A program made the translations under genes and the position numbers. Shown in pieces: positions 1 through 9,053 of a stretch of DNA of 64,000 nt (positions within the stretch are counted from its first letter, which is position 1; every line of letters starts with the position of its first letter). Source of the DNA: an uncultured Actinomycetota bacterium. GTDB taxonomy: Bacteria > Actinomycetota > Thermoleophilia > RBG-16-64-13. The stretch lies in the NCBI GenBank assembly GCA_963790415.1, contig CAWBOK010000003.1:404409-468408 (forward strand), in the 5' to 3' direction. Under the pieces are notes generated by a model. The model saw only the letters and a program-made list of their open reading frames with translations, was not told the DNA's origin and did no database searches.

Positions 1-325
1 GGCGGCCATGGGCGGCCGCTTCGCCAAGGTGGAGATGGGGCCGGTTATCGTGCTCTTCGACGCCACCCGGCCGGACGAGCTACTCGACATGGAGCTGATG
101 GGCCGTCTGGTGACCAGCCAACTGGCGGACGCCGACGTCGTGGCGGTCTCAAAGATCGACGCGGTCTCCCCCGCCGAGCGAGACCGGGCGATGGCCGCCG
201 CGAGAGAAGTGATCCCGGGAGCGGAATTCATCGGAGTGTCGTCGGTCACGGGCGAAGGGATCGACGCCCTCTTGGCCTACATCGTCGGCGGCCTTCAGCC
301 GGCTGGCTTAGAGGTGGAGGCTTGA
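1..325 (+). CDS. G3E-family P-loop GTPase (HypB/UreG/CobW/MeaB-like), C-terminal part; 5' end lies outside the window
   Basis: ORF 8..325 translation ends ...ADADVVAVSKIDAVSPAERDRAMAAAREVIPGAEFIGVSSVTGEGIDALLAYI, typical of the C-terminal half of G3E GTPases. Frame is open to the window edge. Confidence 0.55.
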   Translation, partial: AAMGGRFAKVEMGPVIVLFDATRPDELLDMELMGRLVTSQLADADVVAVSKIDAVSPAERDRAMAAAREVIPGAEFIGVSSVTGEGIDALLAYIVGGLQPAGLEVEA

Positions 326-813
326 GCGCCGACGACGCCTGCTATACCGATCATGGTGTCAGCGGGTATGGGGTGGCCATCAAGTTCCATCAGGATACCG
401 CCGTGGCTCCAGCGGAGGTGGGCGACTTTCTGCGGGAGATGATGGACGACATCGCTCAGGATTGCGTGCGACGCGGAGCCCGTTTCATCGGGCACATCAA
501 GTCGCACCTGGTGTGCGCTCAGGGTAGTCTCAAAGCCGACACTATCGGCATCAACCATCCGGCGGCGCTGCACGGTGAACTCTCGGGGCCCGCCAACGAC
601 CTGTACGTGGCCATCAACTCCATAGTGCAGGGCATCCCTGAGGACCAGGTGATGGAGGCGACCCTGGGTGCTGCCCACCGACTGGCGGAACGACATGGGT
701 TCCGCGTGGTCAAAGAGAAGGAGCACTTGTACTTCGACAAGTACGACTTTGCCAACGAAGAGGAGTATCTTGAGCAGCTCCGTCTGCAGTTCGAGGCGGA
801 GCCGGAACCGTAA
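322..813 (+). CDS. hypothetical protein between two G3E GTPase genes (possible chaperone partner or CobW C-domain-like)
   Basis: 163-aa ORF with ordinary non-Arg-rich composition, start overlapping the upstream stop by 4 nt. No family recognised. Confidence 0.4.
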   Translation: MSADDACYTDHGVSGYGVAIKFHQDTAVAPAEVGDFLREMMDDIAQDCVRRGARFIGHIKSHLVCAQGSLKADTIGINHPAALHGELSGPANDLYVAINSIVQGIPEDQVMEATLGAAHRLAERHGFRVVKEKEHLYFDKYDFANEEEYLEQLRLQFEAEPEP

Positions 814-833
814 ACGCAGGGGGGGCCCGGCGG

Positions 834-1439
834 ATGGTGCGCGTGATATCGATCATCGGGCTGGTGGATTCGGGCAAGAGCAGCCTTATCCGGGTGCTCC
901 TCGACGCGGTGCGCTCCCGGGGTGAGTGCGGCGGCGTGGTGATCAACGACGCGGGGGCCGTGTCCCTGGACGTGCCTGAGATCACCGACCGGCACCCCGT
1001 GCGCACCATCGGAGGCGGTTGAATAGGGTGCAACGAAGCCGGGAGCTTCCAGACCGCGATCAAGTCGATGGCTCGAGACGACGGGGTGAGCGTGTTGTTC
1101 GCCGAACCGTCGGGTATCGTTATACCGTTCGAAATGCGCAACGCCATCAGCGCGGCGGGGCGTGACATACCCGTGACCGTGGGTCCGGTGGTGCTCCTGC
1201 TGAACGCCTCCGAGTCGGAGATGCTGTTCGGGGACGGGCTGGGCCATATCACCGCCCAGCAGATCGCACAGGCGGATATGGTGGCCATCACGAAGGCCGA
1301 TTCCGCTCGGGGTACGGAGATCCTCCGATTGGAGGAAGAGGTGGCGCGGCTGGCTCCCCAGACCCATCTGCACCACGTGAACATGCAGTCGGGCGAGGGT
1401 GTCGCCGCCCTCGCAGAAGCTATACTGGGTCCCCTGTAA
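834..1439 (+). CDS. CobW/COG0523-like G3E GTPase with in-frame UGA (candidate selenocysteine) in the CxCC metal-binding motif
   Basis: ORFs 834..1022 and 1068..1439 are in the same frame, separated only by TGA at 1020-1022 with no other stop. Walker A is IGLVDSGKSS. The CobW-like ENEFGE segment reads VVINDAGAV. The usual GCICC motif reads GGG-U-IGC. Downstream LFAEPSGIVIPFE and ITKAD motifs follow. A hairpin GAAGC-CGGGA-GCTTC lies at 1035-1049. Confidence 0.6.
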
Positions 1440-1549
1440 CGAAGGAGGTACCACTGAGGCGACGCTGTCACGGTTTGGCATGGTCGCGACCCGTGGGCGG
1501 AGCGCGAACGAACGTAGAGTTGGGTCAACATAAGGACAAAGGGGTGGAC

Positions 1550-2621
1550 ATGGCTTTGAAGACAGGTGAGATGACGGGCCTCGAGCGCATCGTCTCCGCA
1601 CTGCAACACAAGGAAGGCGACCGCGTGCCGGCGGGCCCGCTGGTGTGCGGGGCGGCTCGGCGGGTGCTGGGCGTCAACTTATCGGGACTGGGCACAGGAC
1701 TCCGACGTGACGATCGAGAGCATGGTCCAGGCGCAGAAGCTCATCAGGCCGGACGGGGTACTGTTGCTGGTGGATCTCTCCGTGGAGGGGGCCGACTTCG
1801 GCGGACCGATGGTCTTCCCCATCGAGGACACTCCGCATCCGGTGTACAAGGACAACCTGATCAAGACTCTCGACGACTACCACAAGGTCGAGCGGATCGA
1901 CCCGCGCAAGGCCAAGCGCATGAGCCATATGGTGCGCTACACCGACGGCGTCATGAAGGCCATGGGCAGCGAGACCGCTGTCATGACCTTCTGCTATGGC
2001 CCGCTGGGCATCCTCTCCATGCTGCGGGGCGCCGAGAAGCTGTTCCTCGACTGCATGAAGAACCCTGAGGTCGTTCACGAGGCCTCCGAGATCATCACCG
2101 ACGTGCTGCTCGAGCAGATCGACGCGCTATGCGAGACCGGCGTGCACGCCGTCGTGCTCGACACGCTGTTCGCGTCCGGTTCGATCATGAGCAAGGACCT
2201 GTGGATGAAGATGGAGGGGCCGTACGCCCGGCGCCTGGCCGAGCGCGTGCATAGCCACGGCAGGGCCGTGATCGTGCACAACTGCGGCAACAACGTGTAC
2301 TTCGACGTCCAGATCGAGACCATGGCGCCGGAGGCGATCAGCTTCGCCTACCTGCCCGACGACTGCAAGACGTCGCAAGAACTCAAAGACAAGTGGGGCG
2401 ACAAGACGTGCCTCATCGGATATGTGCCGCCGAGCCCGGACATGATGCTGCACACTCCCGAGCAGATCAAGGAGACGTGCAAGGAGCAGATCAAGGTGTT
2501 GGCCCCGGGCGGTGGGTTCATCCTCTCCACCGGGTGCGAGTTCCCGCCGAACGGTTCACTGCTCAGCGCCATAGCGATGATGGAAGCGGCCGACGAGTAC
2601 GGCTGGTATCCGATCGCATAG
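1550..2621 (+). CDS. MtaA/MtbA/CmuA-like methylcobamide:acceptor methyltransferase (uroporphyrinogen decarboxylase fold); reading frame changes near 1690
   Basis: N-terminus MALKTGEMTGLERIVSALQHKEGDRVPAGPLVCGAARRVLGVNLS (frame of ORF 1475) matches MtaA N-termini. The rest (ORF 1707..2621, a different frame) matches the UroD/MtaA family through the C-terminus. RBS aaagggg lies before ATG 1550. A single extra base around aacttatcgg restores VNYRDWAQDSDV. Confidence 0.7.
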
Positions 2622-2638
2622 TCGGGCTGCGTGTTTCT

Positions 2639-2669
2639 GGGGGGGCTTCGCCTCGGCGAAGCCCCCCAT
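2639..2669 (+). terminator. perfect GC-rich hairpin (GGGGGGCTTCGCC-tcg-GCGAAGCCCCCC) after the mtaA-like gene; no U-tract
   Basis: Inverted repeat read directly from the sequence, 18 nt downstream of the stop at 2621 and ahead of the corrinoid protein gene. Confidence 0.45.
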
Positions 2670-2706
2670 GCTACGAGGGTCAGTAGATAGTCACTAGGAG
2701 GGATCC

Positions 2707-3372
2707 ATGGGCACAGACGAACGATTCCAGGAACTGCTCGCCGAGATGAAAGACGGCGTCATCGAGTACGACGAGGACCGGGTGATCGCAGCCGCGCAGG
2801 CCGTCGTCGACGAGGGCTTCGACGCCTATGACGGCATCATGAACGGCCTGGCCGCCGGTATGGAAGTGGTGGGAGAGCTCTTCGACTCCCAGGAGTACTT
2901 CGTGCCCGAAGTCCTCATGTGCGCCGACGCCCTCTACGCCGGTCTCGACATCCTGCGTCCCAAGGTGGACATGGCGGGTCGCGAGACCATCAAGGGTGAA
3001 GTGGTCATCGGTGTGGTGGAAGGCGACGTGCACGACATCGGCAAGAACCTGGTCAAGATGATGTTCGAAGTGGCCGGCTTCACCGTCCACGACCTGGGCG
3101 CCGATGTGCCCATCGACGACTTCGTCGAGGCGCAGATCTCCACCAATTCCGACATCGTGTGCCTCTCCGCCATGATGACCACCACCATGATGGGCATGAA
3201 GAAGGCCATCGTGAAGCTGAAAGAGAAGAACCCCAACGTCATGATCATGCTCGGTGGCGCCCCCGTCACCGGCGAGATCGCCGACATGTTCGGCGCCGAC
3301 GGCTACTCCGAGAACGCCTCCAACGCCGTGTCGGAAGCCATCAAGATGGTGGCGGCGCTGCGGAAGATGTAG
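2707..3372 (+). CDS. corrinoid (cobalamin-binding) protein of methyltransferase systems (MtaC/MtbC/MttC-like)
   Basis: B12-binding DxHxxG motif (GDVHDIGKN), followed by a Rossmann-like C-domain (LSAMMTTTM...MLGGAP). RBS GGAGGG lies 5 nt before the ATG. Confidence 0.85.
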   Translation: MGTDERFQELLAEMKDGVIEYDEDRVIAAAQAVVDEGFDAYDGIMNGLAAGMEVVGELFDSQEYFVPEVLMCADALYAGLDILRPKVDMAGRETIKGEVVIGVVEGDVHDIGKNLVKMMFEVAGFTVHDLGADVPIDDFVEAQISTNSDIVCLSAMMTTTMMGMKKAIVKLKEKNPNVMIMLGGAPVTGEIADMFGADGYSENASNAVSEAIKMVAALRKM

Positions 3373-3427
3373 TACGGTTGTATCCGGAGGAGGGCGACAC
3401 GTCGCCCTCTTTTCCAGCTGTGCAGTG

Positions 3428-4282
3428 ATGGTGAGGTCGAGTGAGATGGTCGGCCGCGTGAGCAAGAAGAGACGAGTCAAGGCCCACGTGGGCCCGGTGG
3501 CGCGCCGCGCTCTGACCGCCGCGATGGAAGACATCGCGCGGGCCGCCGGCGCGGACGTCATCGGGTTCGGCGACGTCAGCGCGGCGCTGCCGGCCGATTT
3601 CCATCACCTGCCGGTGGGAGTATCGCTCGGCGTGGTGCATCCGGCCGTCCGATCGCTCCATCTACTGCCGGGAGGATCGCCTGCCGTCGAACTCGAGCGG
3701 GCCTTGGGCGATCATCGCGACAGGCATGCGCAGGTGTTGCTCGAGACGACCCTGAGCCGGCTGGCCGAATACCTGCAGACCCAGGGGTTTCGCTACTTCT
3801 GTTGTCCACCTGAGGTGGACCCTATGGACGCACCCTTCACTGCACTCCTTGTGCGTCGCTTCTCCCACAAAGCGGCCGCAACGTGTGCTGGGCTTGGTTG
3901 GGTGGGTAGGCACGGATTGCTGAACCACCCGGAGTATGGGCCGCATGTGACTTGGGCGACACTGGTGACCAACGCGCCTCTCGACGTCGGTGCTCCCATC
4001 GTCGAGAGCGCATGTGGGGACTGTAGCCTCTGCGTGTCCGCCTGTCCCGCCGGAGCGATATCCGGCCGGCCGTGGCGGCGCGATGATGGCATGGTGAGTC
4101 TGGTCGACGCCGAGAAGTGTCGCCAGATGTTGGTGGACAACGAGCGCGCCACAGGCCGCCGTTTCTGCGGGCGGTGCGTCGTTGTCTGCGCGGAGGCACG
4201 CATGGCCGCGCGTGGCGGCGTCTCCGCACGTTCGGACGAGAGAGGAGGTGGTGCGCGGCTGGACATGGAGAGCGCTCTATAG
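3428..4282 (+). CDS. QueG/RdhA-like iron-sulfur protein (epoxyqueuosine-reductase/reductive-dehalogenase superfamily) with two 4Fe-4S motifs
   Basis: CGDCSLCVSACPAG and CGRCVVVCAE cluster motifs. The N-terminal domain resembles QueG. The part of ORF 3254..4282 overlapping the corrinoid gene is treated as spurious, so the start is placed at the first ATG after 3372. Confidence 0.55.
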   Translation: MVRSSEMVGRVSKKRRVKAHVGPVARRALTAAMEDIARAAGADVIGFGDVSAALPADFHHLPVGVSLGVVHPAVRSLHLLPGGSPAVELERALGDHRDRHAQVLLETTLSRLAEYLQTQGFRYFCCPPEVDPMDAPFTALLVRRFSHKAAATCAGLGWVGRHGLLNHPEYGPHVTWATLVTNAPLDVGAPIVESACGDCSLCVSACPAGAISGRPWRRDDGMVSLVDAEKCRQMLVDNERATGRRFCGRCVVVCAEARMAARGGVSARSDERGGGARLDMESAL

Positions 4283-4302
4283 TCCCTCTACAACGAAGGA
4301 GG

Positions 4303-5238
4303 ATGATGGGTAAGCAGGCAGTCATAGATGCCTATGAAGGGCGCTATACCCCGGTCGTGCCGTGGGTGCCCTACGTGGGCGTCCACGGAGCATATCTGAT
4401 CGGGGAGACGGCCACGAAGGTGCTGCAGGATTCCGATCTACTGGCGAAGGCGGTGGTCAACGCCGCCGAACGCTACAAGGCCGACGGCATCCCGTTGATC
4501 TTCGATCTGGCCGTCGAGGCCATGTCGATGGGAATCACGGCCAAGTGGTTCGACGATAACCCACCTACGGTGATCGAGCATCCGCTGGCAGACAAGACCC
4601 TGGCGGAAGCGGGCCTGAAGATCCCCGGTCCCACCGACGGTCGTTTTCCGACGGTCATCGCGGCGGGCAAGAAGGCCAAAGCGCAGTTGGGCGACGTGGC
4701 CCTCATCGGCCTCGTGTGCGGCCCGCTCACCTTGGCCTCGCACATGCGCGGCGCCAAGATGTTCACCGACATGGTGAAGAAGCCCGAGCTCGCCATGGAG
4801 ATCATGGAGTTCGCGGGCAAGGTGTGCGCGGAGTCGGCGCGCATCTATGCCGAAGAGATCGGCTGCGACATCGTCGCACTGGTGGAGCCCGTTGGCAGCC
4901 AGGTGCGCCCGGACACCTACGACAAGTTCGTGATCCCGGCGTGCCAGGAAGCCTTGGACAACATCCACAAGGCCGGCAAGACCAGCGCTCTCTACATCTG
5001 CGGCGACGCCACCAAGATCGTCGAGAACATGATGTACACCGGCGCCAGCTGCGTGTGCGTCGACGAGCAGTTGAACATGAACTACGTGCGCGACTGCGCC
5101 CTCAAGTATGGTCGCGGCTTCGGCGGCAACCTGAAGCTGACCCTGGCCCTCTCCCTCGGGATCATCGATCCGCGGGAAGACGCCATCGTCAGCCTGGCGG
5201 CCGGCGGCAAGATCGGCTACACCTTCTCCCCTGGCTGA
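4303..5238 (+). CDS. second MtaA/UroD-family methylcobamide methyltransferase
   Basis: MMGKQAVIDAYEGRYTPVVPWVPYVG... shows UroD-family similarity along its full length. RBS GAAGGAGG sits immediately upstream. Intact 311 aa. Confidence 0.8.
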   Translation: MMGKQAVIDAYEGRYTPVVPWVPYVGVHGAYLIGETATKVLQDSDLLAKAVVNAAERYKADGIPLIFDLAVEAMSMGITAKWFDDNPPTVIEHPLADKTLAEAGLKIPGPTDGRFPTVIAAGKKAKAQLGDVALIGLVCGPLTLASHMRGAKMFTDMVKKPELAMEIMEFAGKVCAESARIYAEEIGCDIVALVEPVGSQVRPDTYDKFVIPACQEALDNIHKAGKTSALYICGDATKIVENMMYTGASCVCVDEQLNMNYVRDCALKYGRGFGGNLKLTLALSLGIIDPREDAIVSLAAGGKIGYTFSPG

Positions 5239-5240
5239 GA

Positions 5241-5375
5241 CATGCCCTATGACGTTCCGGTTGAGAACGTGGATAAGGTCATCGAAGTCAAGACCTGGTA
5301 CGAGACGTACTACGCGCACTATCCGAATGTCGACTACCCGTCGATCCTACCCAAACGCAGCCCAGTCAAGGCTTA
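5241..5375 (+). CDS. small ORF (44 aa, MPYDVPVENVDKVIEVKTWYETYYAHYPNVDYPSILPKRSPVKA)
   Basis: Fills the 150-nt gap between mtaA-2 and the thioredoxin-like gene with ordinary composition. Below the ORF-track length cut-off. Confidence 0.2.
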
Positions 5376-5391
5376 GAGGGAGGTGACCCAC

Positions 5392-5733
5392 GTGGCTGAC
5401 GACAAGATCCTTGTCGAGGTGCTCACGCTCGACTCCCTTCAGTGACCGGCCTGCGGGTACATGGTCGATGTACTCAATACGCTGCCGCCGCAAGTGAAGG
5501 AATTCATCGAGTACAAGGAGTGGTCCATCAAGAACCCTGAGGGCATCCAGATGTTCATGGCCCGCAAGGGGAAGGTGCTGCCCACCTTGTGCATCAATGA
5601 AGCGTGCGTCTACGAGAGCATCATCCCGACTCTGGACGAACTCTACGAGACGCTGATCGCCGCTGCAAAGAGCGACTCTCAGAGGGAGACCCTCCGCGCG
5701 GCCTTCGACAAGGCCATGGAGGAGTACAACTAG
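5392..5733 (+). CDS. small thioredoxin-fold protein (Thioredoxin_3-like) with UxxC active site; candidate selenoprotein
   Basis: RBS AGGGAGG lies 9 nt before GTG 5392. In-frame translation is MADDKILVEVLTLDSLQ-U(TGA 5443-5445)-PACGYMVDVLNTL...LPTLCINEACVYESIIPTLDELYE. The beta1/CxxC/alpha1 layout and the C-terminal cis-Pro region are those of the fold. An 8-bp hairpin GGGTACAT-GGTCG-ATGTACTC lies at 5455-5475, 9 nt after the UGA. Confidence 0.6.
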
Positions 5734-5884
5734 ATCGAGACCGGATTCCCTCCGGTGGATGCTGGGGCGGCGGCCGCGAATGCGGCCGCCGCCCCGCCTC
5801 ACTCTCGGCTCTAGTAGGCTGTCGAAGATGATCGAGGACGGTGTATCGCGCCACCCAGCGCTGTACACGCAAGGAGTCGACTCC

Positions 5885-6444
5885 ATGGCGGTGAGACGCA
5901 TCTGCATGCACGCCTGTGGGGGCATCACCCGCGTAGGAGCGACCGTCGGCCCGACTGGCCACGTACATGGTGGCCGAGGAACTGCTCCCCGAGAAGACGC
6001 TCATCTCGTGTGCTCCGGCGTTTCTGCGCGGCGTCGAGGAGGACGTGCTCATGGTGCTGAAGAGCCCTTCCTTCGCCCTCGACGGCTGCGAGTGGAGCTG
6101 CGGCACCAACCTGCTCTATCTGGCCGGCATCACGCCTGCGGTGCGCTTCCTGCTGCCCGAGTACGCGGAGGCGCAGGGCTTCGATCTCTCGGGAGGCAGC
6201 CGCCGCTTTCCGTCGGGGGTGACGCAGGAGTTCGCCCGAGTCGTCGCCGAGCGGGTGGCCGGCATCGCCGAAGGCATGATGGCTCGAGGCGGCGCGTACC
6301 AGTTCCAGCCGGCCCGAACTCAAGATGCAGCCGGACAAGTGGTTCCGCACGGCGCCGAACATGGAGGGCATCATGGAGTTCGTCCGTATCGAACCGGGCG
6401 TGTATCGGCCCGTGACTATGCCGCTTCTGCCCGAAGAGGCCTGA
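5885..6444 (+). pseudogene. DGC-domain protein paralog 1, interrupted by at least two +1 frame changes
   Basis: N-terminus MAVRRICMHACGGITRVGA is in one frame, ARLATYMVAEELLPEKTLISCAPAFLRGVEEDVLMVLKSPSFALDGCEWSCGTN in a second, and RPELKMQPDKWFRTAPNMEGIMEFVRIEPG in a third. Each segment aligns with the downstream intact paralog. RBS AAGGAG lies before ATG 5885. Confidence 0.5.
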
Positions 6445-6445
6445 C

Positions 6446-7069
6446 ATGGCGGTGGAGAAGGTGACCATCTTCCCTTGTGGGGGGATCGGCGACCCGGTGT
6501 CGTCGGTGACCCGGCTGGCCGGCTACGTTCTGGCGGAGGATCTTCTGCCCGGACCGAGTGGAGCTGGTCGAGTATCCCCCCGATCATCACCGGCGTGCCG
6601 GAGGAACTGGAGGCCGGTGCAGGCCTATCCGGTGATCGTCCTCGACGGCTGCGGCCACCGCTGTGGCTCCAATGCGCTGAATCTGGTGGGCATCAAGCCG
6701 GCGGCCCGCCTCTTCACGCCCCGGGTGCGTTCGGACACCAAGCACGCCATCGGGAAGCGGCGACCGTTCCCGGAGGTGTCGGGTCAGAAGCTGGCAAAGG
6801 ACCTGGCTGAGAGGGCCGCCGCCATCGCCCGCCACATGCTCGAAGACCCGGCGTACGTCTTCGCACGACAGACGGTCAGGCCCAACCCCGAGGGACTCCA
6901 CGACGAGTCCTTGGATATCGAGTCCGCCATGGGGTATGAGGAGATAGAGACGGGCTGCTTCCAATGCGCCGGAATGTGCGCGTTCAAGATGCGGGACGAT
7001 CCCGAGGTGCGCCGCATGCTCGAAGAGGACGTCGAGGAGATCGAGGATGTGGAGGACCTGAGGCCGTGA
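6446..7069 (+). CDS. DGC-domain protein paralog 2 (CGGI...DGC...CGSN motifs, acidic C-terminal tail)
   Basis: Continuous 207-aa ORF: IFPCGGIGDPVSSVTRLAGYVLAEDLLP...VIVLDGCGHRCGSNALNLVGIKPA...ETGCFQCAGMCAF. The middle segment PSGAGRVSPRSSPACRRNW has odd composition, and an alternative frame reads IITGVPEEL. Confidence 0.55.
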   Translation: MAVEKVTIFPCGGIGDPVSSVTRLAGYVLAEDLLPGPSGAGRVSPRSSPACRRNWRPVQAYPVIVLDGCGHRCGSNALNLVGIKPAARLFTPRVRSDTKHAIGKRRPFPEVSGQKLAKDLAERAAAIARHMLEDPAYVFARQTVRPNPEGLHDESLDIESAMGYEEIETGCFQCAGMCAFKMRDDPEVRRMLEEDVEEIEDVEDLRP

Positions 7070-7281
7070 TCGTTCGCCTGCTGCTGCGTGGCTGAGTGAC
7101 CTGCGGTCCGGCGGTGCGTCGGGCTCTGGAATCCACGCCCGAGGTGGAGCTCGTGGCCATGGATTGGGACGAGCACTGGGCAGACGTGCGCTTCCTCGAC
7201 CCCACATACGGGTACCGTCAGTTGCAGACCCGCCTGATGCTCGCGGGCGCTTGGTGCGACGTGTGGCCGAAGGAGGTGTGA
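7066..7281 (+). CDS. mini thioredoxin-fold protein with UxxC motif; candidate selenoprotein
   Basis: GTG 7066 overlaps the DGC-2 stop, with GGAGGA 9 nt upstream. Translation is MIVRLLLRG-U(TGA 7093-7095)-VTCGPAVRRALESTPEVELVAMDW... A hairpin CCGGCG-GUG-CGUCGG lies at 7108-7122, extendable to 9 bp with wobble pairs. Confidence 0.5.
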
Positions 7282-7682
7282 TGATGACCCGATCTCTGCA
7301 GGGTTTGCCCGCGCTGAACATACAGGTGGTCTCCGAAGGCGGGCACTGCGTTCCCTGACTGATCGCGATAGACGCCACCCGGGAGGTGGCGGCGGAGTTC
7401 GCTGAGGGCGAGGTGGCCGTCGAGGTGGTCACGCTGAAGGAACCTGCCGGCGCGGAACGGTACCGCGAGTTGCGGCGTTCGGCGGGGCAGCACCTTCCTG
7501 TTCCGTGCGTACTTCTGGAAGGGCGTCTGGTCTCCCCGGGAATCCCGGAACCGGACGGGCTTCGCGAGGTCATCCGAGAGGCGCTGCTCCACGGTCCGCC
7601 AGAGTTCGGCGACGCGACTCCCAGCGACGAGGCTCCCGGTGACGCCAGGACGGTCGACGAGAGGGTGGGCACGGCGGAGTGA
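7281..7682 (+). CDS. thioredoxin-fold protein (Thioredoxin_3-like) with CxxU motif; candidate selenoprotein
   Basis: ATG 7281 with AGGAGG 5 nt upstream. Translation is MMTRSLQGLPALNIQVVSEGGHCVP-U(TGA 7356-7358)-LIAIDATREVAAEFAEGEVAVEVVTL...LPVPCVLLEGRLVSPGIPEPDGLREVI. The cis-Pro/GR region of the thioredoxin fold is present. A hairpin CGCCACC-CGGGA-GGTGGCG lies at 7373-7391. Confidence 0.6.
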
Positions 7683-8275
7683 TCCTGCTGCGGGGGTTCT
7701 ACGGACAGACCGTCGAGATCGAAGAGGACCGTCTCTACGACGGCGCCGAGGAGCTGTGGGTGCGGGACATGGGCGACCGCGTGCGCGTCGGCGTTACGAA
7801 GGTCGGCGTGCTCCTGATGGGCGGCATCGAGTCCACGGAGTTCTTCGTGGAGCCCGGCGACCACATCGAGAAGGACGGCGACCTGGTCTTCTTCGAGACC
7901 TTCAAGGCGGTCCGCTACGTGCTCGCTCCGCTGACCGGGGAGGTGATCGTGGTCAACGACAAGGTGGTCGACGACCCGGAGTTGTTCGACGACGATCCCT
8001 ACGGCGAGGCCTGGTTGGTCGAGGTTCGCCCGGCTTCCCCGGGCTGGGCGGATTCGTCGCTGAACTCGCCGCAGGACTATGCCTCGGCGCTTGAGCGCTC
8101 GGAGCATTGCGCCGAGGGATCGGAGGTCTTGCTCGAGGTCAAGAAAGGCTCCCCCACGTGCCGTTCGCTCTACGGCGGCATCCGTGGGAACGAGCCCGGC
8201 GAGGGGAGTCTCAGCTGGAGAGACCCCGCCGCCGGCGGTGCGCGACCTCCAGAGGAGGAAGGCACCGCCGACTGA
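7679..8275 (+). CDS. glycine-cleavage H-protein-like (lipoyl-domain fold) protein with extended C-terminus
   Basis: LWVRDMGDRVRVGVTKVGVLLMGGIESTEFFVEPGDHIEKDGDLVFFETFKAVRYVLAPLTGEVIVVNDKVVDDPELFDDDPYGEAWLVEV matches the GcvH family, including the ETFKA lysine position. Start overlaps the upstream stop. Confidence 0.65.
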   Translation: MILLRGFYGQTVEIEEDRLYDGAEELWVRDMGDRVRVGVTKVGVLLMGGIESTEFFVEPGDHIEKDGDLVFFETFKAVRYVLAPLTGEVIVVNDKVVDDPELFDDDPYGEAWLVEVRPASPGWADSSLNSPQDYASALERSEHCAEGSEVLLEVKKGSPTCRSLYGGIRGNEPGEGSLSWRDPAAGGARPPEEEGTAD

Positions 8276-8312
8276 ACTCACCGGCCCGGCGTGGGGCGGT
8301 CGCGTCCCAGCT

Positions 8313-9053
8313 CTACCTGTGCGCCTGATCCGCCTCGAACCAACGCCACATCATGGCACTCGCCTCGGCGTGGTTGGTCATGTCGCCGGGGCGGAACATC
8401 CCGAAGCCATCGCTGTTGATGACGCCCATCTGCATCATCCAGGCTATGTGGTCGGCGGCCCAGCTACCTTCCGCGCCCGCAAGGCGTCCCATCCTGGTGG
8501 CCATAGCTGCCGTCATGTCCGCCGAAGTGGCGATGCCGTGCTTCGCCTGCCAGGCGCGGTCCATTATGGCCGCCATCTGCTCGCGGGTGATGGTGTCGTA
8601 GGGCCCAAAGGTGCCGTCGGCGTGCCCGGTCAGGATGCCCATCTCGGTCATGGTCTCGATCATGCCCGCTCCCCAGAAGCCTTCCGTGTCGGAGAAGCTG
8701 GTCCCCGCCGTCGGCTGGAGGTTCATCATGCGGGCCATGATGCCCGCGAACTGGCCGCGTGTGAGGGGTTGGTCGGGACCGAAGGTGCCGTCACTGAATC
8801 CACCCATGAATCCGCGCCCGGCCATGTTCTCCGCCATCGGGGCGAACCAGTCGCCAGAGGTGACGTCGACGAACATATGCCCTTGGCCAGGGCCGCCGGG
8901 GACGGTCCCGGGCTGCATCATGGTGGGGCTGCCCGGGCTGCCGCCCATTCCGCCGCCCATCGGGCTTGCGCCGGCCACTCCCGCGAGCAGCAACGCAACC
9001 GTTCCCGTCACGGCGAGTAGGGTGACTCCTGTGCGTCGTACGTTCATTCCCAC
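8313..9053 (-). CDS. secreted S-layer-homology (SLH) domain protein
   Basis: Signal peptide followed by three SLH repeats (FSDGTFGPDQPLTRGQFAGIM, HADGTFGPYDTITREQMAAIM, ...). Confidence 0.75.
   Translation of the reverse strand: MGMNVRRTGVTLLAVTGTVALLLAGVAGASPMGGGMGGSPGSPTMMQPGTVPGGPGQGHMFVDVTSGDWFAPMAENMAGRGFMGGFSDGTFGPDQPLTRGQFAGIMARMMNLQPTAGTSFSDTEGFWGAGMIETMTEMGILTGHADGTFGPYDTITREQMAAIMDRAWQAKHGIATSADMTAAMATRMGRLAGAEGSWAADHIAWMMQMGVINSDGFGMFRPGDMTNHAEASAMMWRWFEADQAHR

What the first reader, a model, noticed from the sequence alone, without database searches (positions are those of the whole stretch)
7066..7682. Two adjacent, translationally coupled thioredoxin-fold genes with complementary UxxC and CxxU motifs
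Gene 7066..7281 (GTG overlapping the upstream stop) reads MIVRLLLRG-U-VTC-GPAV.... Gene 7281..7682 (ATG overlapping the previous stop, AGGAGG upstream) reads ...QVVSEGGHCVP-U-LIAIDATREV...LPVPCVLLEGRLVSPG.... In one the Sec is in the N-terminal (attacking) position, in the other the C-terminal (resolving) position. With the UxxC protein at 5392 this makes three Sec-thioredoxin-fold proteins in 2.3 kb, followed directly by a GcvH-like (lipoyl/dithiol-carrier fold) protein. This looks like a dedicated selenol/thiol relay rather than general redox housekeeping.
Basis: partly seen in the sequence, partly recalled or inferred. Interest (0 to 1): 0.75.

Follow-up and report, generated by a model that had tools for sequence, protein, structure and literature searches.

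The report
Two selenoprotein genes: metallochaperone-like and thioredoxin-like
Two small neighbouring genes each read a UGA 'stop' as selenocysteine; one has a thioredoxin fold and the other a metal-chaperone fold, and both sit in a conserved five-selenoprotein operon around a vitamin-B12-dependent methyltransferase in uncultured Actinomycetota, which makes this an unusual selenium-rich accessory system worth testing.

Summary
Both ORFs are at the stated coordinates, each with one in-frame TGA (7093, 7356). The TGA is kept in orthologues from about 14 distinct Thermoleophilia/Gaiellales/Actinomycetota MAG loci. Coding is conserved on both sides (dN/dS 0.02-0.3), and a conserved hairpin follows at 7106-7124 and at 7369-7395.

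In gene 2 the TGA alternates with TGC/TGT (CVPC) in close orthologues. For gene 1, none of 39 protein clusters reaches the TGA position, so no Cys form was seen.

Gene 2 is a small thioredoxin/glutaredoxin-fold protein (C-V-P-U), related to, but below the cut-off of, NCBIfam's 'HUIPC' thioredoxin-like selenoprotein. Gene 1 does not have a thioredoxin fold. It is an HMA (CopZ/MerP/Atx1-type) domain with U-x-x-C in the metal-binding loop.

The operon holds five selenoprotein genes: a CobW-like GTPase, an MtaA-like methyltransferase with Sec at a zinc-ligand position, a second thioredoxin-like protein, and these two. It also holds two DGC proteins and a GcvH-related protein.

My best reading, at about 0.45, is a Se/S-ligand metal hand-off plus redox-maintenance module for the Sec-containing methyltransferase. 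The metal, the direction of transfer and the Sec machinery are untested.

The parts
7066..7281 (+). Gene 1: 71-codon HMA-fold (CopZ/MerP-like) selenoprotein, motif R-G-U-V-T-C, with an invariant C-terminal A-G-A-W-C
7093..7095 (+). In-frame TGA of gene 1 (predicted Sec10)
   Evidence: TGA in 14 distinct orthologous sequences. Upstream codons are conserved through synonymous changes (CGT/CGC/AGG, GGC/GGT/GGG). It aligns with the first Cys of the MerP MxCxxC motif in hhalign (weak, probability 15%).
7106..7124 (+). SECIS-like hairpin of gene 1: 7-bp stem, 5-nt loop (G/C)GU(G/A)C; the loop starts 18 nt after the UGA
   Evidence: 96% of cells paired across 14 sequences. One compensatory pair (C-G to U-A, with U-G as intermediate). 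Slid controls pair at 31-56%.
7281..7682 (+). Gene 2: 133-codon thioredoxin/glutaredoxin-fold selenoprotein, motif G-G-H-C-V-P-U, with a cis-Pro loop L-P-V-P-C. The start may be ATG 7284.
   Evidence: Translation. Full-length Cys orthologues carry CVPC. AF2 model of the 82%-identical orthologue P0003 has pLDDT 86 and b-a-b-a-b-b-a topology. Foldseek finds Grx/Trx. PDB profile hits are 1NHO and 1FO5. NCBIfam HUIPC_Trx_selen scores 76 bits against a cut-off of 105.
7356..7358 (+). In-frame TGA of gene 2 (predicted Sec26), at the C-terminal position of the CxxC motif
   Evidence: TGA in 12 distinct loci and TGC/TGT in 5. Aligned with Cys in P0001, P0003-7, P0009, P0011, P0012, P0014 and P0016.
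7369..7395 (+). SECIS-like hairpin of gene 2: core stem 7373-7379/7385-7391, loop C(G/A)(G/U)GA, and a lower 3-bp stem
   Evidence: 95% of cells paired in 12 Sec-type sequences. Two pairs show compensatory changes (C-G/G-C at columns 18/36, and C-G to U-A through two synonymous changes in L012). The covariation score is reached by 2/500 shuffles.
7679..8275 (+). GcvH-related protein, start overlapping the stop of gene 2. The lipoyl-lysine position is kept (FFETFKAV). It has a conserved Cys-bearing C-terminal extension (EHC...GSPTC).
   Evidence: Pfam GCV_H 5.9e-21. NCBIfam GcvH_rel_desulf 110 bits, cut-off 150. Alignment of 15 loci.
6446..7069 (+). DGC-domain protein 2 (Cys-rich). In this window it carries three 1-nt insertions relative to L015.
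   Evidence: Pfam DGC. Synteny. Indels.
5885..6444 (+). DGC-domain protein 1, split over three frames in this window
   Evidence: Three-frame translation. Pfam DGC. Intact in L001, L004 and L015.
5392..5733 (+). Second thioredoxin-like selenoprotein (Q-U-P-A-C), TGA at 5443, with an invariant downstream hairpin carrying a GGUCG loop
   Evidence: Translation. TGA in all 13+ loci. NCBIfam HUIPC_Trx_selen E 7e-6 over the full length. Hairpin.
4303..5376 (+). MtaA-like (UroD superfamily) methyltransferase with TGA at 5236 (S-P-G-U-D-M-P)
   Evidence: Pfam URO-D 2.8e-48. Alignment to MtaA 4AY7 puts Sec on the P-G-C cysteine and Tyr on the His of H-x-C. TGA in 16/16 loci.
3428..4282 (+). Two-[4Fe-4S] protein related to QueG and reductive dehalogenases
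   Evidence: Pfam Fer4 families. NCBIfam QueG 5e-16 and RDH 6.5e-14, both below cut-off.
2707..3372 (+). Corrinoid (B12-binding) protein of the MtbC/MtgC type, with D-V-H-D-I-G-K
   Evidence: NCBIfam pyl_corrinoid 4.4e-60.
1550..2621 (+). MtaA-like methyltransferase 1, with a canonical H-N-C ... T-G-C site; frameshift near 1680 in this window
   Evidence: Three-frame translation. tblastn synteny.
834..1439 (+). CobW/HypB-family GTPase selenoprotein, TGA at 1020 (G-G-G-U-I-G-C)
   Evidence: Pfam cobW 3.9e-19. NCBIfam CobW_rel_Se 122 bits, cut-off 180. TGA in 4/4 loci that cover it.

Best explanation
**What the two genes are.** Both ORFs are genuine selenoprotein genes. They belong to a conserved operon of uncultured Thermoleophilia/Gaiellales that is built around a corrinoid-dependent, MtaA-like methyltransferase, and that methyltransferase itself carries Sec.
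- Gene 1 is a stand-alone HMA (CopZ/MerP/Atx1-type) domain. Sec10 and Cys13 occupy the two ligand positions of the metal-binding loop, and an invariant Cys64 follows the second helix.
- Gene 2 is a minimal thioredoxin/glutaredoxin-fold protein of the 'E-G-x-H-C/U-x-P-C/U' family. Here Sec takes the C-terminal position of the redox motif.

**Mechanism I commit to (inferred, not shown).**
- The cluster is an assembly and maintenance line for the thiophilic metal site of the Sec-containing methyltransferase.
- The HMA protein holds the metal ion on a Se/S pair.
- The two CobW-family GTPases, one with Sec in its CxCC-type motif, insert it into the Tyr/Cys/Sec site of the methyltransferase.
- The two thioredoxin-like selenoproteins, coupled to the lipoyl dithiol of the GcvH-related protein, keep the Cys/Sec ligands reduced by breaking Se-S bonds.

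**Shown versus inferred.** Shown: coding status, Sec/Cys correspondence for gene 2, folds, hairpins, synteny. Inferred: metal binding, the partner order, the identity of the metal and the direction of transfer.
For: **Selenoprotein status.**
- The TGA is conserved with flanking purifying selection.
- Gene 2 alternates between Sec and Cys.
- Conserved hairpins start 10-13 nt after each UGA, with the apical loop 18-22 nt after it.
- TGA is also used as the real stop of the DGC2, gene 1 and gene 2 ORFs, so the recoding is site-specific.
- No further candidates appear in the other 56 kb.

**Folds.**

**Metal reading.**
- Sec or Cys sits at canonical metal-ligand positions in three proteins: the HMA loop, the CobW CxCC-type motif and the P-G-C zinc-ligand cysteine of MtaA.
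- PMC10418091 describes His-Cys-Cys zinc coordination in UroD-superfamily S-methyltransferases.
- Two CobW-family GTPases precede the module wherever the locus reaches that far.
- L007 and L008 carry a large ORF upstream of the CobW genes that I read by eye as vWA/CobT-like; it was not scanned against any family library.

**Gene 2 as a redox partner of the GcvH-related protein.**
- The start of the GcvH-related gene overlaps the stop of gene 2.
- The pairing recurs in a distant relative, L028.

**The gene 2 family travels with corrinoid methyltransferase and CobW genes.** Seen in L021, L022 and L025.
Against: - No metal binding, metal identity or protein contact has been tested.
- Every family-model hit for gene 1 is far below its cut-off (14.9 bits against 24.8 for Pfam HMA; 16.8 against 95 for NF041115). 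hhalign probability is only 15%.
- Gene 1 is a remnant or absent in three loci (L005, L020, L009), so it is not essential to the module.
- Seven accessory proteins seem many for inserting a single zinc-type ion.
- Thioredoxin-like proteins in Sec-rich operons have also been proposed to bind metals directly (SaoT; bioRxiv 10.1101/2022.07.06.499078). A paralogue with U-P-C-C exists in L011 and L017.
- Sec machinery (selA/B/C/D) is not in the window and could not be looked for in the rest of the genome.
Confidence: 0.45

Rival explanations
1. The cargo is the substrate or product rather than a cofactor metal. The HMA, thioredoxin-like, DGC and GcvH-related proteins would bind and pass on selenide, sulfide, methylselenol or a metalloid such as As(III). 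These species would be released from, or delivered to, the corrinoid-dependent S/Se-methyltransferases as Se-S, Se-Se or Se-metalloid adducts, for example to salvage selenium for selenoprotein synthesis.
For: - UroD-superfamily clusters with His-Cys-Cys enzymes have been linked to methyl-sulfur and methyl-selenide metabolism. One Mlp2 methylates selenide in vitro (PMC10418091).
- URO-D 1 here has the H-x-C ... G-C site.
- L010 and L011 add an MtrH-like methyltransferase and a RACE activase, giving a complete demethylation route to a folate-type carrier.
- A relative of gene 2 lies beside an MIP channel gene (L025).
- The operon's demand for five Sec residues fits a selenium-centred function.
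Against: - CobW-family GTPases are metallochaperones, not chalcogenide carriers (established family knowledge).
- No rhodanese, TusA, SelD or Sec-lyase gene is in the cluster.
- Nothing identifies the substrate.
- Membership of the two URO-D proteins in the Mlp clades was not tested.
Confidence: 0.25
2. This is the first reader's model: a pure selenol/thiol redox relay. All three small selenoproteins would be oxidoreductases that pass reducing equivalents from the lipoyl dithiol of the GcvH-like protein to a target, for example a Cys-Sec bond in the methyltransferase.
For: - Gene 2 and the 5392 protein have the thioredoxin fold or a thioredoxin-like profile.
- C-x-x-U and U-x-x-C are classical redox motifs.
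- The gene 2/GcvH pairing is conserved.
- The lipoyl-lysine position is conserved.
Against: - Gene 1 is HMA-fold, not thioredoxin-fold.
- The model leaves the two CobW GTPases, the two DGC proteins and the Sec at the zinc-ligand position of the methyltransferase unexplained.
Confidence: 0.2
3. These are not selenoproteins. The TGAs would be real stops. The region would then hold decaying pseudogenes, or short independent ORFs starting just after each TGA, as the public annotations assume.
For: - The window carries 1-nt indels in three neighbouring genes.
- Public gene calls start after the TGA.
- Gene 1 is decayed in three loci.
- Sec machinery was not seen in the window.
Against: - The codons just upstream of each TGA are conserved in frame, with synonymous variation.
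- dN/dS is well below 1.
- In five loci the codon after the gene 1 TGA is GTC, which cannot start translation.
- Gene 2's TGA is replaced by exactly Cys codons in orthologues.
- Five genes in one operon show the same pattern, each with its own conserved hairpin.
Confidence: 0.03

Closest known systems
NCBIfam NF047660, 'HUIPC motif thioredoxin-like (seleno)protein' (listed in the review PMC13188914, which cites Haft & Tolstoy 2025, a paper not held here)
   Same: - The alignment with gene 2 runs end to end (residues 12-101 against model positions 2-90 of 91, E 1.5e-21).
- The fold is the small MJ0307-type thioredoxin fold.
- His precedes the redox motif and Pro is at its third position.
- Sec and Cys alternate within the family.
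   Different: - The score is 76 bits against a cut-off of 105.
- Sec is at the C-terminal position (H-C-V-P-U) instead of the N-terminal one (H-U-I-P-C).
- There is an extra near-invariant Cys after the cis-Pro.
- The genomic context is a corrinoid methyltransferase operon of Actinomycetota.
HMA-domain metallochaperones and domains (CopZ, Atx1/ATOX1, MerP, NmerA; Pfam PF00403), and the Sec-containing relatives listed in PMC13188914 (NF041115 UxxU metal-binding protein; cation-transporting ATPase with UxxC)
   Same: - The topology and the position of the two-ligand motif in the b1-a1 loop match.
- The best structural matches are HMA domains.
- Weak profile hits go to HMA, CopZ, MerP and UxxU_metal_bind.
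   Different: - Every sequence score is below the family cut-off.
- The motif is G-U-V-T-C rather than M-x-C-x-x-C or U-x-x-U.
- There is an invariant W-x-E-x-W and an A-G-A-W-C with a third Cys.
- None of 39 protein clusters reaches the motif, so no Cys form was seen.
- The protein is stand-alone and found only in this operon.
Multi-selenoprotein operons: the SAO system (six selenoprotein families; bioRxiv 10.1101/2022.07.06.499078) and the Tso operon (PMC13188914)
   Same: - Several selenoprotein genes sit in one operon.
- These include an MJ0307-like thioredoxin-like protein, with Sec placed at presumed metal-contacting positions.
- The systems occur in anaerobe-type metabolism.
   Different: - None of the SAO or Tso family models hit these proteins.
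- There is no MerB-like lyase, ABC transporter or rhodanese/DsbD fusion.
- The core here is a UroD-type methyltransferase with corrinoid protein and CobW GTPases.
- The hosts are Actinomycetota.
Type 1 mlp gene clusters of MtaA-like methyltransferases (Kountz & Balskus, PMC10418091)
   Same: - Two UroD-superfamily MtaA-like methyltransferases sit with an MtbC-type corrinoid protein.
- A RACE activase is present in some loci.
- URO-D 1 has a His-Cys-Cys site.
- There is a proposed link to S/Se chemistry.
   Different: - Clade membership was not tested.
- The second enzyme has Tyr-Cys-Sec.
- A QueG/RdhA-like Fe-S protein stands where the activase usually is.
- The HMA, Trx, DGC, GcvH and CobW accessory set is not part of the described clusters.
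CxxU thioredoxin-like selenoproteins (SelW-like; GrdA of glycine reductase)
   Same: Sec is at the C-terminal position of a C-x-x-U motif, at the start of helix 1 of a thioredoxin-like fold.
   Different: There is no detectable sequence relationship, and the partners are different.

Membership tests
Bacterial selenoprotein gene (UGA recoded as Sec) | In-frame UGA conserved among orthologues, with coding conservation on both sides | tested here: met
   Gene 1: TGA in 14 distinct sequences. Gene 2: TGA in 12. dN/dS is 0.02-0.3 across the codon.
Bacterial selenoprotein gene (UGA recoded as Sec) | UGA aligns with Cys in homologues | tested here: met
   Gene 2: CVPC in 11 full-length proteins and TGC/TGT in 5 loci. 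Gene 1: none of 39 protein clusters reaches the motif, so no Cys form was seen. Its only link is a weak profile alignment to the first Cys of the HMA motif. For gene 1 alone this feature is therefore inconclusive.
Bacterial selenoprotein gene (UGA recoded as Sec) | Stem-loop (bacterial SECIS) immediately downstream of the UGA, with G in the apical loop | tested here: met
   Hairpins at 7106-7124 and 7369-7395 are 95-96% paired. There are 1 and 2 compensatory pairs. The loops are GGUGC and CGGGA. Covariation is modest, and part of the conservation is forced by coding. There was no Rfam match.
Bacterial selenoprotein gene (UGA recoded as Sec) | selA, selB, selC (tRNA-Sec) and selD in the same genome | not testable with these tools
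   There is no tRNA in the window and no Sec-machinery domain among 20 large ORFs.
Thioredoxin fold (gene 2) | b-a-b-a-b-b-a topology, with the CxxC-type motif at the N-terminus of helix 1 and a cis-Pro loop before strand 3 | tested here: met
   The AF2 model of orthologue P0003 gives E11-17, H23-36, E44-50, H54-67, E75-78, E81-84, H90-103. The alignment to 1NHO/1FO5 pairs C-x-x-C and V-P. Foldseek finds Grx/Trx with probability 1.0. Pfam Thioredoxin_3 scores only 17.2 bits against 24.8.
HMA domain (PF00403) for gene 1 | b-a-b-b-a-b ferredoxin-like fold, with two soft ligands spaced x-x in the b1-a1 loop | tested here: met
HMA domain (PF00403) for gene 1 | Score above the Pfam gathering threshold | tested here: not met
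   14.9 bits against 24.8, E 0.037.
NF047660 HUIPC thioredoxin-like selenoprotein (gene 2) | Score above the curated cut-off, and an H-U-I-P-C motif | tested here: not met
   76.3 bits against 105. The motif is H-C-V-P-U. Gene 2 is a relative, not a member.
NF041115 UxxU metal-binding selenoprotein (gene 1) | Score above the curated cut-off, and a U-x-x-U motif | tested here: not met
   16.8 bits against 95. The motif is U-V-T-C.
Type 1 mlp gene cluster (PMC10418091) | Mlp2- and Mlp3-clade UroD methyltransferases with His-Cys-Cys, plus a corrinoid protein and a RACE activase | tested here: inconclusive
   Two UroD proteins and a corrinoid protein are present. RACE is present only in L010/L011. 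URO-D 2 has Tyr-Cys-Sec. Clade placement was not tested.

The most novel reading that the evidence does not exclude
The operon would be a dedicated, selenium-based metallocentre assembly line with these steps:
- A Sec-containing HMA chaperone that may occur only as a selenoprotein (no Cys form seen) hands a thiophilic metal to a Sec-containing CobW GTPase.
- That GTPase builds a Se-ligated (Tyr/Cys/Sec) metal site in an MtaA-like corrinoid methyltransferase.
- Two Sec-thioredoxins and a lipoyl GcvH-type carrier keep the site reduced.

This would be the first selenoprotein of the UroD/MtaA superfamily not listed in the 2026 family table (PMC13188914). It would also be the first chain of selenoproteins that passes a metal from Se/S site to Se/S site.
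Probability: 0.3. Interest if true: 0.8.

Novelty: new variant of a known kind. Interest (0 to 1): 0.62.

Why it matters
**Gaps in annotation.**
- Public annotations truncate all five genes at or after the UGA. The operon is therefore invisible in protein databases as anything more than 'hypothetical' fragments.
- Recognising the genes adds a Sec-bearing HMA-fold family with no Cys form seen so far. It also adds a permuted-Sec branch of the HUIPC thioredoxin family.
- It points to a Sec-containing member of the MtaA/UroD methyltransferases, in a phylum where selenoproteomes are little studied.

**A testable question.** Corrinoid-dependent S/Se methyl transfer outside methanogens has unknown substrates and unknown accessory needs (PMC10418091). 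This operon offers a compact set of candidate partners: an HMA protein, thioredoxin-like proteins, a GcvH-related protein, DGC proteins and CobW GTPases. Their order of action can be tested in vitro. It also allows a direct test of why selenium is placed at metal-ligand positions.

**A practical point.** The same thioredoxin-like family travels with corrinoid methyltransferase genes in unrelated lineages. It may serve as a marker for such systems.

Tried and rejected
- **Full-length model of gene 1.** Only residues 11-71 could be modelled, so strands b1 and b4 are unverified.
- **Origin of the window.** Exact-sequence look-ups of the window's GcvH-like protein and of P0008 found no contig. The source record was not identified. 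P0008, 99% identical to the post-TGA part of gene 2, comes from a 1.2-Mb NCBI/ENA contig.
- **Rfam.** The scan of 1-9000 gave only chance-level hits and no SECIS family.
- **hhalign.** I treat this as weak support.
- **Foldseek.** The truncated gene 1 model against PDB gave no significant E-value. I use only the ranking and the TM scores.
- **Paralogy.** BLASTP of gene 2 against the 5392 protein shows no pairwise similarity. Their kinship rests only on both hitting NF047660.
- **DGC proteins.** They have no informative PDB or NCBIfam relatives.
- **Papers not held.** Haft & Gwadz 2023 (journal version) and Haft & Tolstoy 2025 are not held. I cannot rule out that the latter already describes part of this neighbourhood.
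- **afdb50.** This library was unavailable.
- **Global UGA reassignment.** Rejected, because TGA ends several genes of the same operon.
- **More selenoprotein genes in the window.** A scan for in-frame TGA flanked by coding-like composition found only the known ones plus gene boundaries and antisense frames. Its thresholds did not flag gene 1 or gene 2 themselves.
Full report
**What is in the sequence.** On the + strand, 7066-7281 reads V-IVRLLLRG-TGA-VTCGPAVRRALESTPEVELVAMDWDEHWADVRFLDPTYGYRQLQTRLMLAGAWCDVWPKEV-stop. The stretch 7281-7682 reads MMTRSLQGLPALNIQVVSEGGHCVP-TGA-LIAIDATREV...LPVPCVLLEGRLVSPGIPEPD...-stop. The GTG at 7066 overlaps the TGA stop of the preceding gene. ATG 7281 overlaps the stop of gene 1, behind AGGAGG at 7271-7276. 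A second ATG at 7284 is spaced better and fits the single-Met starts of homologues. GTG 7679 of the next gene overlaps the stop of gene 2.

**The surrounding cluster.** The window has about 65% G+C. A three-frame translation of 1-9000 plus Pfam and NCBIfam scans give one co-directional cluster, in this order:

| Coordinates | Product | Notes |
|---|---|---|
| 2-325 | End of a CobW-like GTPase | |
| about 340-810 | Conserved unknown | |
| 834-1439 | CobW-like GTPase | In-frame TGA at 1020 (G-G-G-U-I-G-C) |
| about 1550-2621 | MtaA-like UroD methyltransferase 1 | Frameshift near 1680 |
| 2707-3372 | MtbC-type corrinoid protein | |
| 3428-4282 | QueG/RdhA-like two-[4Fe-4S] protein | |
| 4303-5376 | MtaA-like methyltransferase 2 | TGA at 5236 (S-P-G-U-D-M-P) |
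| 5392-5733 | Thioredoxin-like protein | TGA at 5443 (Q-U-P-A-C) |
| 5885-6444 | DGC-domain protein 1 | Split over three frames |
| 6446-7069 | DGC-domain protein 2 | Three 1-nt insertions |
| 7066-7281 | Gene 1 | TGA at 7093 |
| 7281-7682 | Gene 2 | TGA at 7356 |
| 7679-8275 | GcvH-related protein | |

Downstream genes lie on the other strand and differ between genomes.

**Are the TGAs more than chance?** I collected 20 related loci.
- Exact-protein look-ups gave L001-L004.
- A scan of species-representative genomes gave L005-L013, all titled Thermoleophilia, Gaiellales, Actinomycetes or Actinomycetota MAGs.
- A metagenome scan gave L014-L020.

tblastn shows the same gene order wherever the contig is long enough. 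The codon at each suspected Sec position is as follows.
- **Gene 1:** TGA in all 14 distinct intact sequences.
- **Gene 2:** TGA in 12 distinct sequences and TGC/TGT in 5.
- **5392 protein:** TGA in all loci.
- **Methyltransferase 2:** TGA in 16 of 16.
- **CobW:** TGA in 4 of 4.

The residues just upstream of the gene 1 TGA (R-L-x-L-R-G) are kept through synonymous codon changes: CGT/CGC/AGG for Arg and GGC/GGT/GGG for Gly. In five loci the codon after the TGA is GTC, which cannot start translation. Nei-Gojobori dN/dS across the region spanning each TGA is 0.02-0.3, apart from one comparison (gene 2, L013) inflated by an indel. TGA also terminates several genes of the same operon, so the recoding is site-specific. 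A composition-based scan found no further convincing in-frame TGA in the remaining 56 kb, although its thresholds also missed genes 1 and 2.

**Cys homologues.**
- **Gene 2.** The protein database holds full-length relatives (78-83% identity) with G-G-H-C-V-P-C. It also holds many fragments that begin right after the motif, which is the signature of gene callers stopping at a TGA.
- **Gene 1.** A single-sequence search and a profile search found 39 clusters, every one 42-75 residues long and none reaching the TGA position. No Cys form was seen. Gene 1 may therefore occur only as a selenoprotein. Its support comes from upstream conservation, the hairpin and the fold.

**Hairpins.** Each of the five TGAs is followed, 10-13 nt downstream, by a conserved stem-loop.
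- **Gene 1.** A 7-bp stem (7106-7112 with 7118-7124) and loop (G/C)GU(G/A)C. 96% of cells are paired in 14 sequences, against 31-56% when the partner is slid. One pair goes C-G, U-G, U-A.
- **Gene 2.** A core 7-bp stem (7373-7379 with 7385-7391) with loop CGGGA and a 3-bp extension (7369-7395). 95% of cells are paired. C-G/G-C alternate at one pair. In L012 a C-G to U-A change is made by two synonymous substitutions. The covariation score is reached by 2 of 500 shuffles.

The distances and the G-containing loops agree with what I recall of the bacterial SECIS consensus (own knowledge). The covariation is modest, and part of the stem conservation is forced by conserved amino acids. The Cys-type copies of gene 2 keep the stem in L004 and L020 and weaken it in L001 and L005. 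Rfam has no matching family.

**Folds.**
- **Gene 2.** A profile of the family matches the small archaeal thioredoxins 1NHO and 1FO5, with C-x-x-C on C-x-x-C and V-P on V-P (E 0.017 and 0.31). An AlphaFold2 model of the 82%-identical Cys orthologue P0003 (pLDDT 86) has the b-a-b-a-b-b-a order. It retrieves glutaredoxins and thioredoxins. NCBIfam places it next to NF047660, 'HUIPC motif thioredoxin-like (seleno)protein'. The alignment runs over the full length at 76 bits, below the 105-bit cut-off.

Gene 1 is therefore best described as an HMA-type domain with a Se/S ligand pair.

**Wider relatives of gene 2.** A full HMMER profile search of 1.84 billion representatives found only 60 proteins at E<0.001. 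The more distant ones carry E-G-P-H-C-[VI]-P-C, E-R-x-H-C-V-M-Y or K-K-G-C-M-L-C. Their contexts again involve corrinoid chemistry.
- **L021:** UroD methyltransferase, corrinoid protein, the thioredoxin-like gene, then a RACo activase.
- **L022:** RACE activase, the thioredoxin-like gene, then a TSCPD protein.
- **L025:** MIP channel, CobW, the thioredoxin-like gene, then CobW, V4R, MtrH and UroD further along.
- **L028:** GcvH next to the thioredoxin-like gene.
- **L024:** CobA/BtuR and DUF2284 neighbours.

The family is thus a recurrent companion of corrinoid methyltransferase, CobW and GcvH genes.

**The rest of the operon.**
- Methyltransferase 2 aligns to MtaA (PDB 4AY7). Its Sec falls on the cysteine of P-G-C, and a Tyr falls on the His of H-x-C.
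- PMC10418091 describes His-Cys-Cys as the zinc site of UroD-type S-methyltransferases.
- That these are the MtaA ligands His240, Cys242 and Cys319 is my recollection of the structure paper.
- Methyltransferase 1 keeps H-N-C and T-G-C.
- The CobW Sec lies in the family's Cys-rich motif. The protein scores 122 bits on NF041053, 'CobW-related selenoprotein' (cut-off 180).
- The GcvH-related protein keeps the lysine of the lipoylation motif and has a conserved C-terminal extension with two cysteines.
- L010 and L011 add a RACE activase and an MtrH-like methyltransferase upstream, as read from ORF translations.
- L007 and L008 carry a large ORF before the CobW genes that I read by eye as vWA/CobT-like. 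It was not scanned.

**Mechanism.**

*Shown:* coding status, the Sec/Cys relationship for gene 2, the folds, the hairpins and the conserved neighbourhood.

*Inferred:* three of the five Sec residues lie where their families bind metal. These are the HMA loop, the CobW motif and the MtaA zinc site. CobW proteins are GTP-dependent metal insertases (family knowledge). I therefore favour, at about 0.45, a metal-site assembly and maintenance line with these roles.
- The HMA protein carries the ion on Se/S.
- The CobW GTPases insert it into the Tyr/Cys/Sec site of methyltransferase 2.
- The two thioredoxin-like selenoproteins, with the lipoyl arm of the GcvH-related protein, keep the ligands reduced.

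The main rival, at about 0.25, is that the small proteins carry the substrate or product of S/Se methyl transfer (selenide, sulfide, methylselenol or a metalloid). This follows the case made for mlp clusters (PMC10418091). It explains gene 2, the 5392 protein and GcvH, but not the HMA fold, the CobW proteins or the Sec at the zinc position. Decay or chance gets about 0.03.

**Caveats.**
- Sec machinery is not in the window and could not be searched for elsewhere.
- The window carries single-base insertions relative to L015 in both DGC genes, and a frameshift in methyltransferase 1. These may be assembly errors or early decay. Genes 1 and 2 themselves are intact.
- Gene 1 is a remnant in L005 and L020 and is absent from L009, so it is dispensable in some lineages.

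**Comparison with what is known.**
- Thioredoxin-fold selenoproteins, C-x-x-U motifs, Sec in HMA domains of P-type ATPases, a U-x-x-U metal-binding protein, a CobW-related selenoprotein and the HUIPC family are all listed in the 2026 review (PMC13188914).
- Multi-selenoprotein operons (SAO, Tso) are also known.
- Term searches of that review found no UroD/MtaA-type methyltransferase and no stand-alone U-x-x-C HMA protein.
- No Pfam or NCBIfam model reaches its cut-off on gene 1 or gene 2.
- I could not read Haft & Tolstoy 2025, which may touch on the NF047660/NF045810 neighbourhoods.

**Verdict.** This is a new variant of a known kind. Interest is moderate to high (0.62), mainly because of the operon as a whole.

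Noticed in passing
window 4303-5376 (TGA at 5236-5238): The MtaA-like (UroD superfamily) methyltransferase has a conserved in-frame TGA in S-P-G-U-D-M-P. The TGA aligns with the P-G-C cysteine of MtaA 4AY7, and the His of H-x-C is Tyr here. TGA is present in 16/16 loci, followed by a conserved hairpin ACGUUC-CNGUUGA-GAACGU. Term searches found no UroD/MtaA entry in the selenoprotein family table of PMC13188914.
   Followed up: partly
window 834-1439 (TGA at 1020-1022): The CobW/HypB-family GTPase has an in-frame TGA in G-G-G-U-I-G-C. It scores 122 bits on NCBIfam CobW_rel_Se (cut-off 180). The hairpin GAAGC-CGGGA-GCUUC has the same loop as gene 2. A second CobW-like gene ends at 325.
   Followed up: partly
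window 5392-5733 (TGA at 5443-5445): The thioredoxin-like Q-U-P-A-C protein has a downstream hairpin GGUACAU-GGUCG-AUGUACU. In the main-copy gene this hairpin shows only a single terminal-base change across the 10 distinct sequences compared, including at wobble positions. That suggests RNA-level constraint.
   Followed up: partly
L011 about 6395-6463 and L017 1456-1779: These loci carry an extra paralogue of the 5392 protein with a Cys-overloaded motif, K-Q-U-P-C-C. This resembles the CPCC forms that Haft discussed for SaoT as a hint of metal binding.
   Followed up: no
window 5764-5795: There is a perfect 14-bp G+C inverted repeat (GGGGCGGCGGCCGC / GCGGCCGCCGCCCC, 4-nt loop) between the 5392 gene and the first DGC gene. 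It is also present in L015 and has no T-tract. It may be a transcript boundary or a stabiliser that splits the cluster into two units.
   Followed up: partly
window about 1680, 5885-6444, 6550-6620: There are frame disruptions relative to orthologues. URO-D 1 has one frameshift. DGC1 is split over three frames by two 1-nt insertions. DGC2 has three 1-nt insertions that restore the frame after about 80 nt. The cause could be long-read assembly errors or incipient decay.
   Followed up: partly
window 7679-8275: The GcvH-related protein keeps the lipoyl-lysine motif (F-F-E-T-F-K-A-V). It carries a conserved C-terminal extension, L-E-R-S-E-H-C-A-E-G...K-K-G-S-P-T-C-R-S-x-Y-G-G-I-R-G-N-E-P-G-E-G-S-L-S-W, with two cysteines. 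The extension is shorter in L010 and L011.
   Followed up: partly
L005 about 960-1110, L020 about 1130-1276, L009 2990-3030: Gene 1 is reduced to a C-terminal remnant in L005 and L020, and both of those loci have the Cys form of gene 2. Gene 1 is missing altogether in L009, which has the Sec form of gene 2.
   Followed up: yes
L021, L022, L024, L025, L028: Distant relatives of gene 2 (E-G-P-H-C-x-P-C) lie inside or next to corrinoid methyltransferase clusters, CobW genes, a GcvH gene, an MIP channel gene, CobA/BtuR and DUF2284. The thioredoxin-like family may be a general accessory of such systems.
   Followed up: partly
L010 1-2100, L011 1-2000; L007 and L008 1-2050: Upstream of the cluster, L010 and L011 encode a RACE-type corrinoid activase and an MtrH-like methyltransferase, as read from ORF translations. 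L007 and L008 encode an ORF of about 640-690 aa that I read by eye as vWA/CobT-like, not scanned, just before the CobW genes, and they lack URO-D 1 and the corrinoid gene at that position.
   Followed up: no
window 3428-4282: A protein with two [4Fe-4S] motifs resembles QueG and reductive dehalogenases (both B12 enzymes, below cut-offs). It stands where corrinoid methyltransferase clusters usually carry an activase. Its role is unknown.
   Followed up: no
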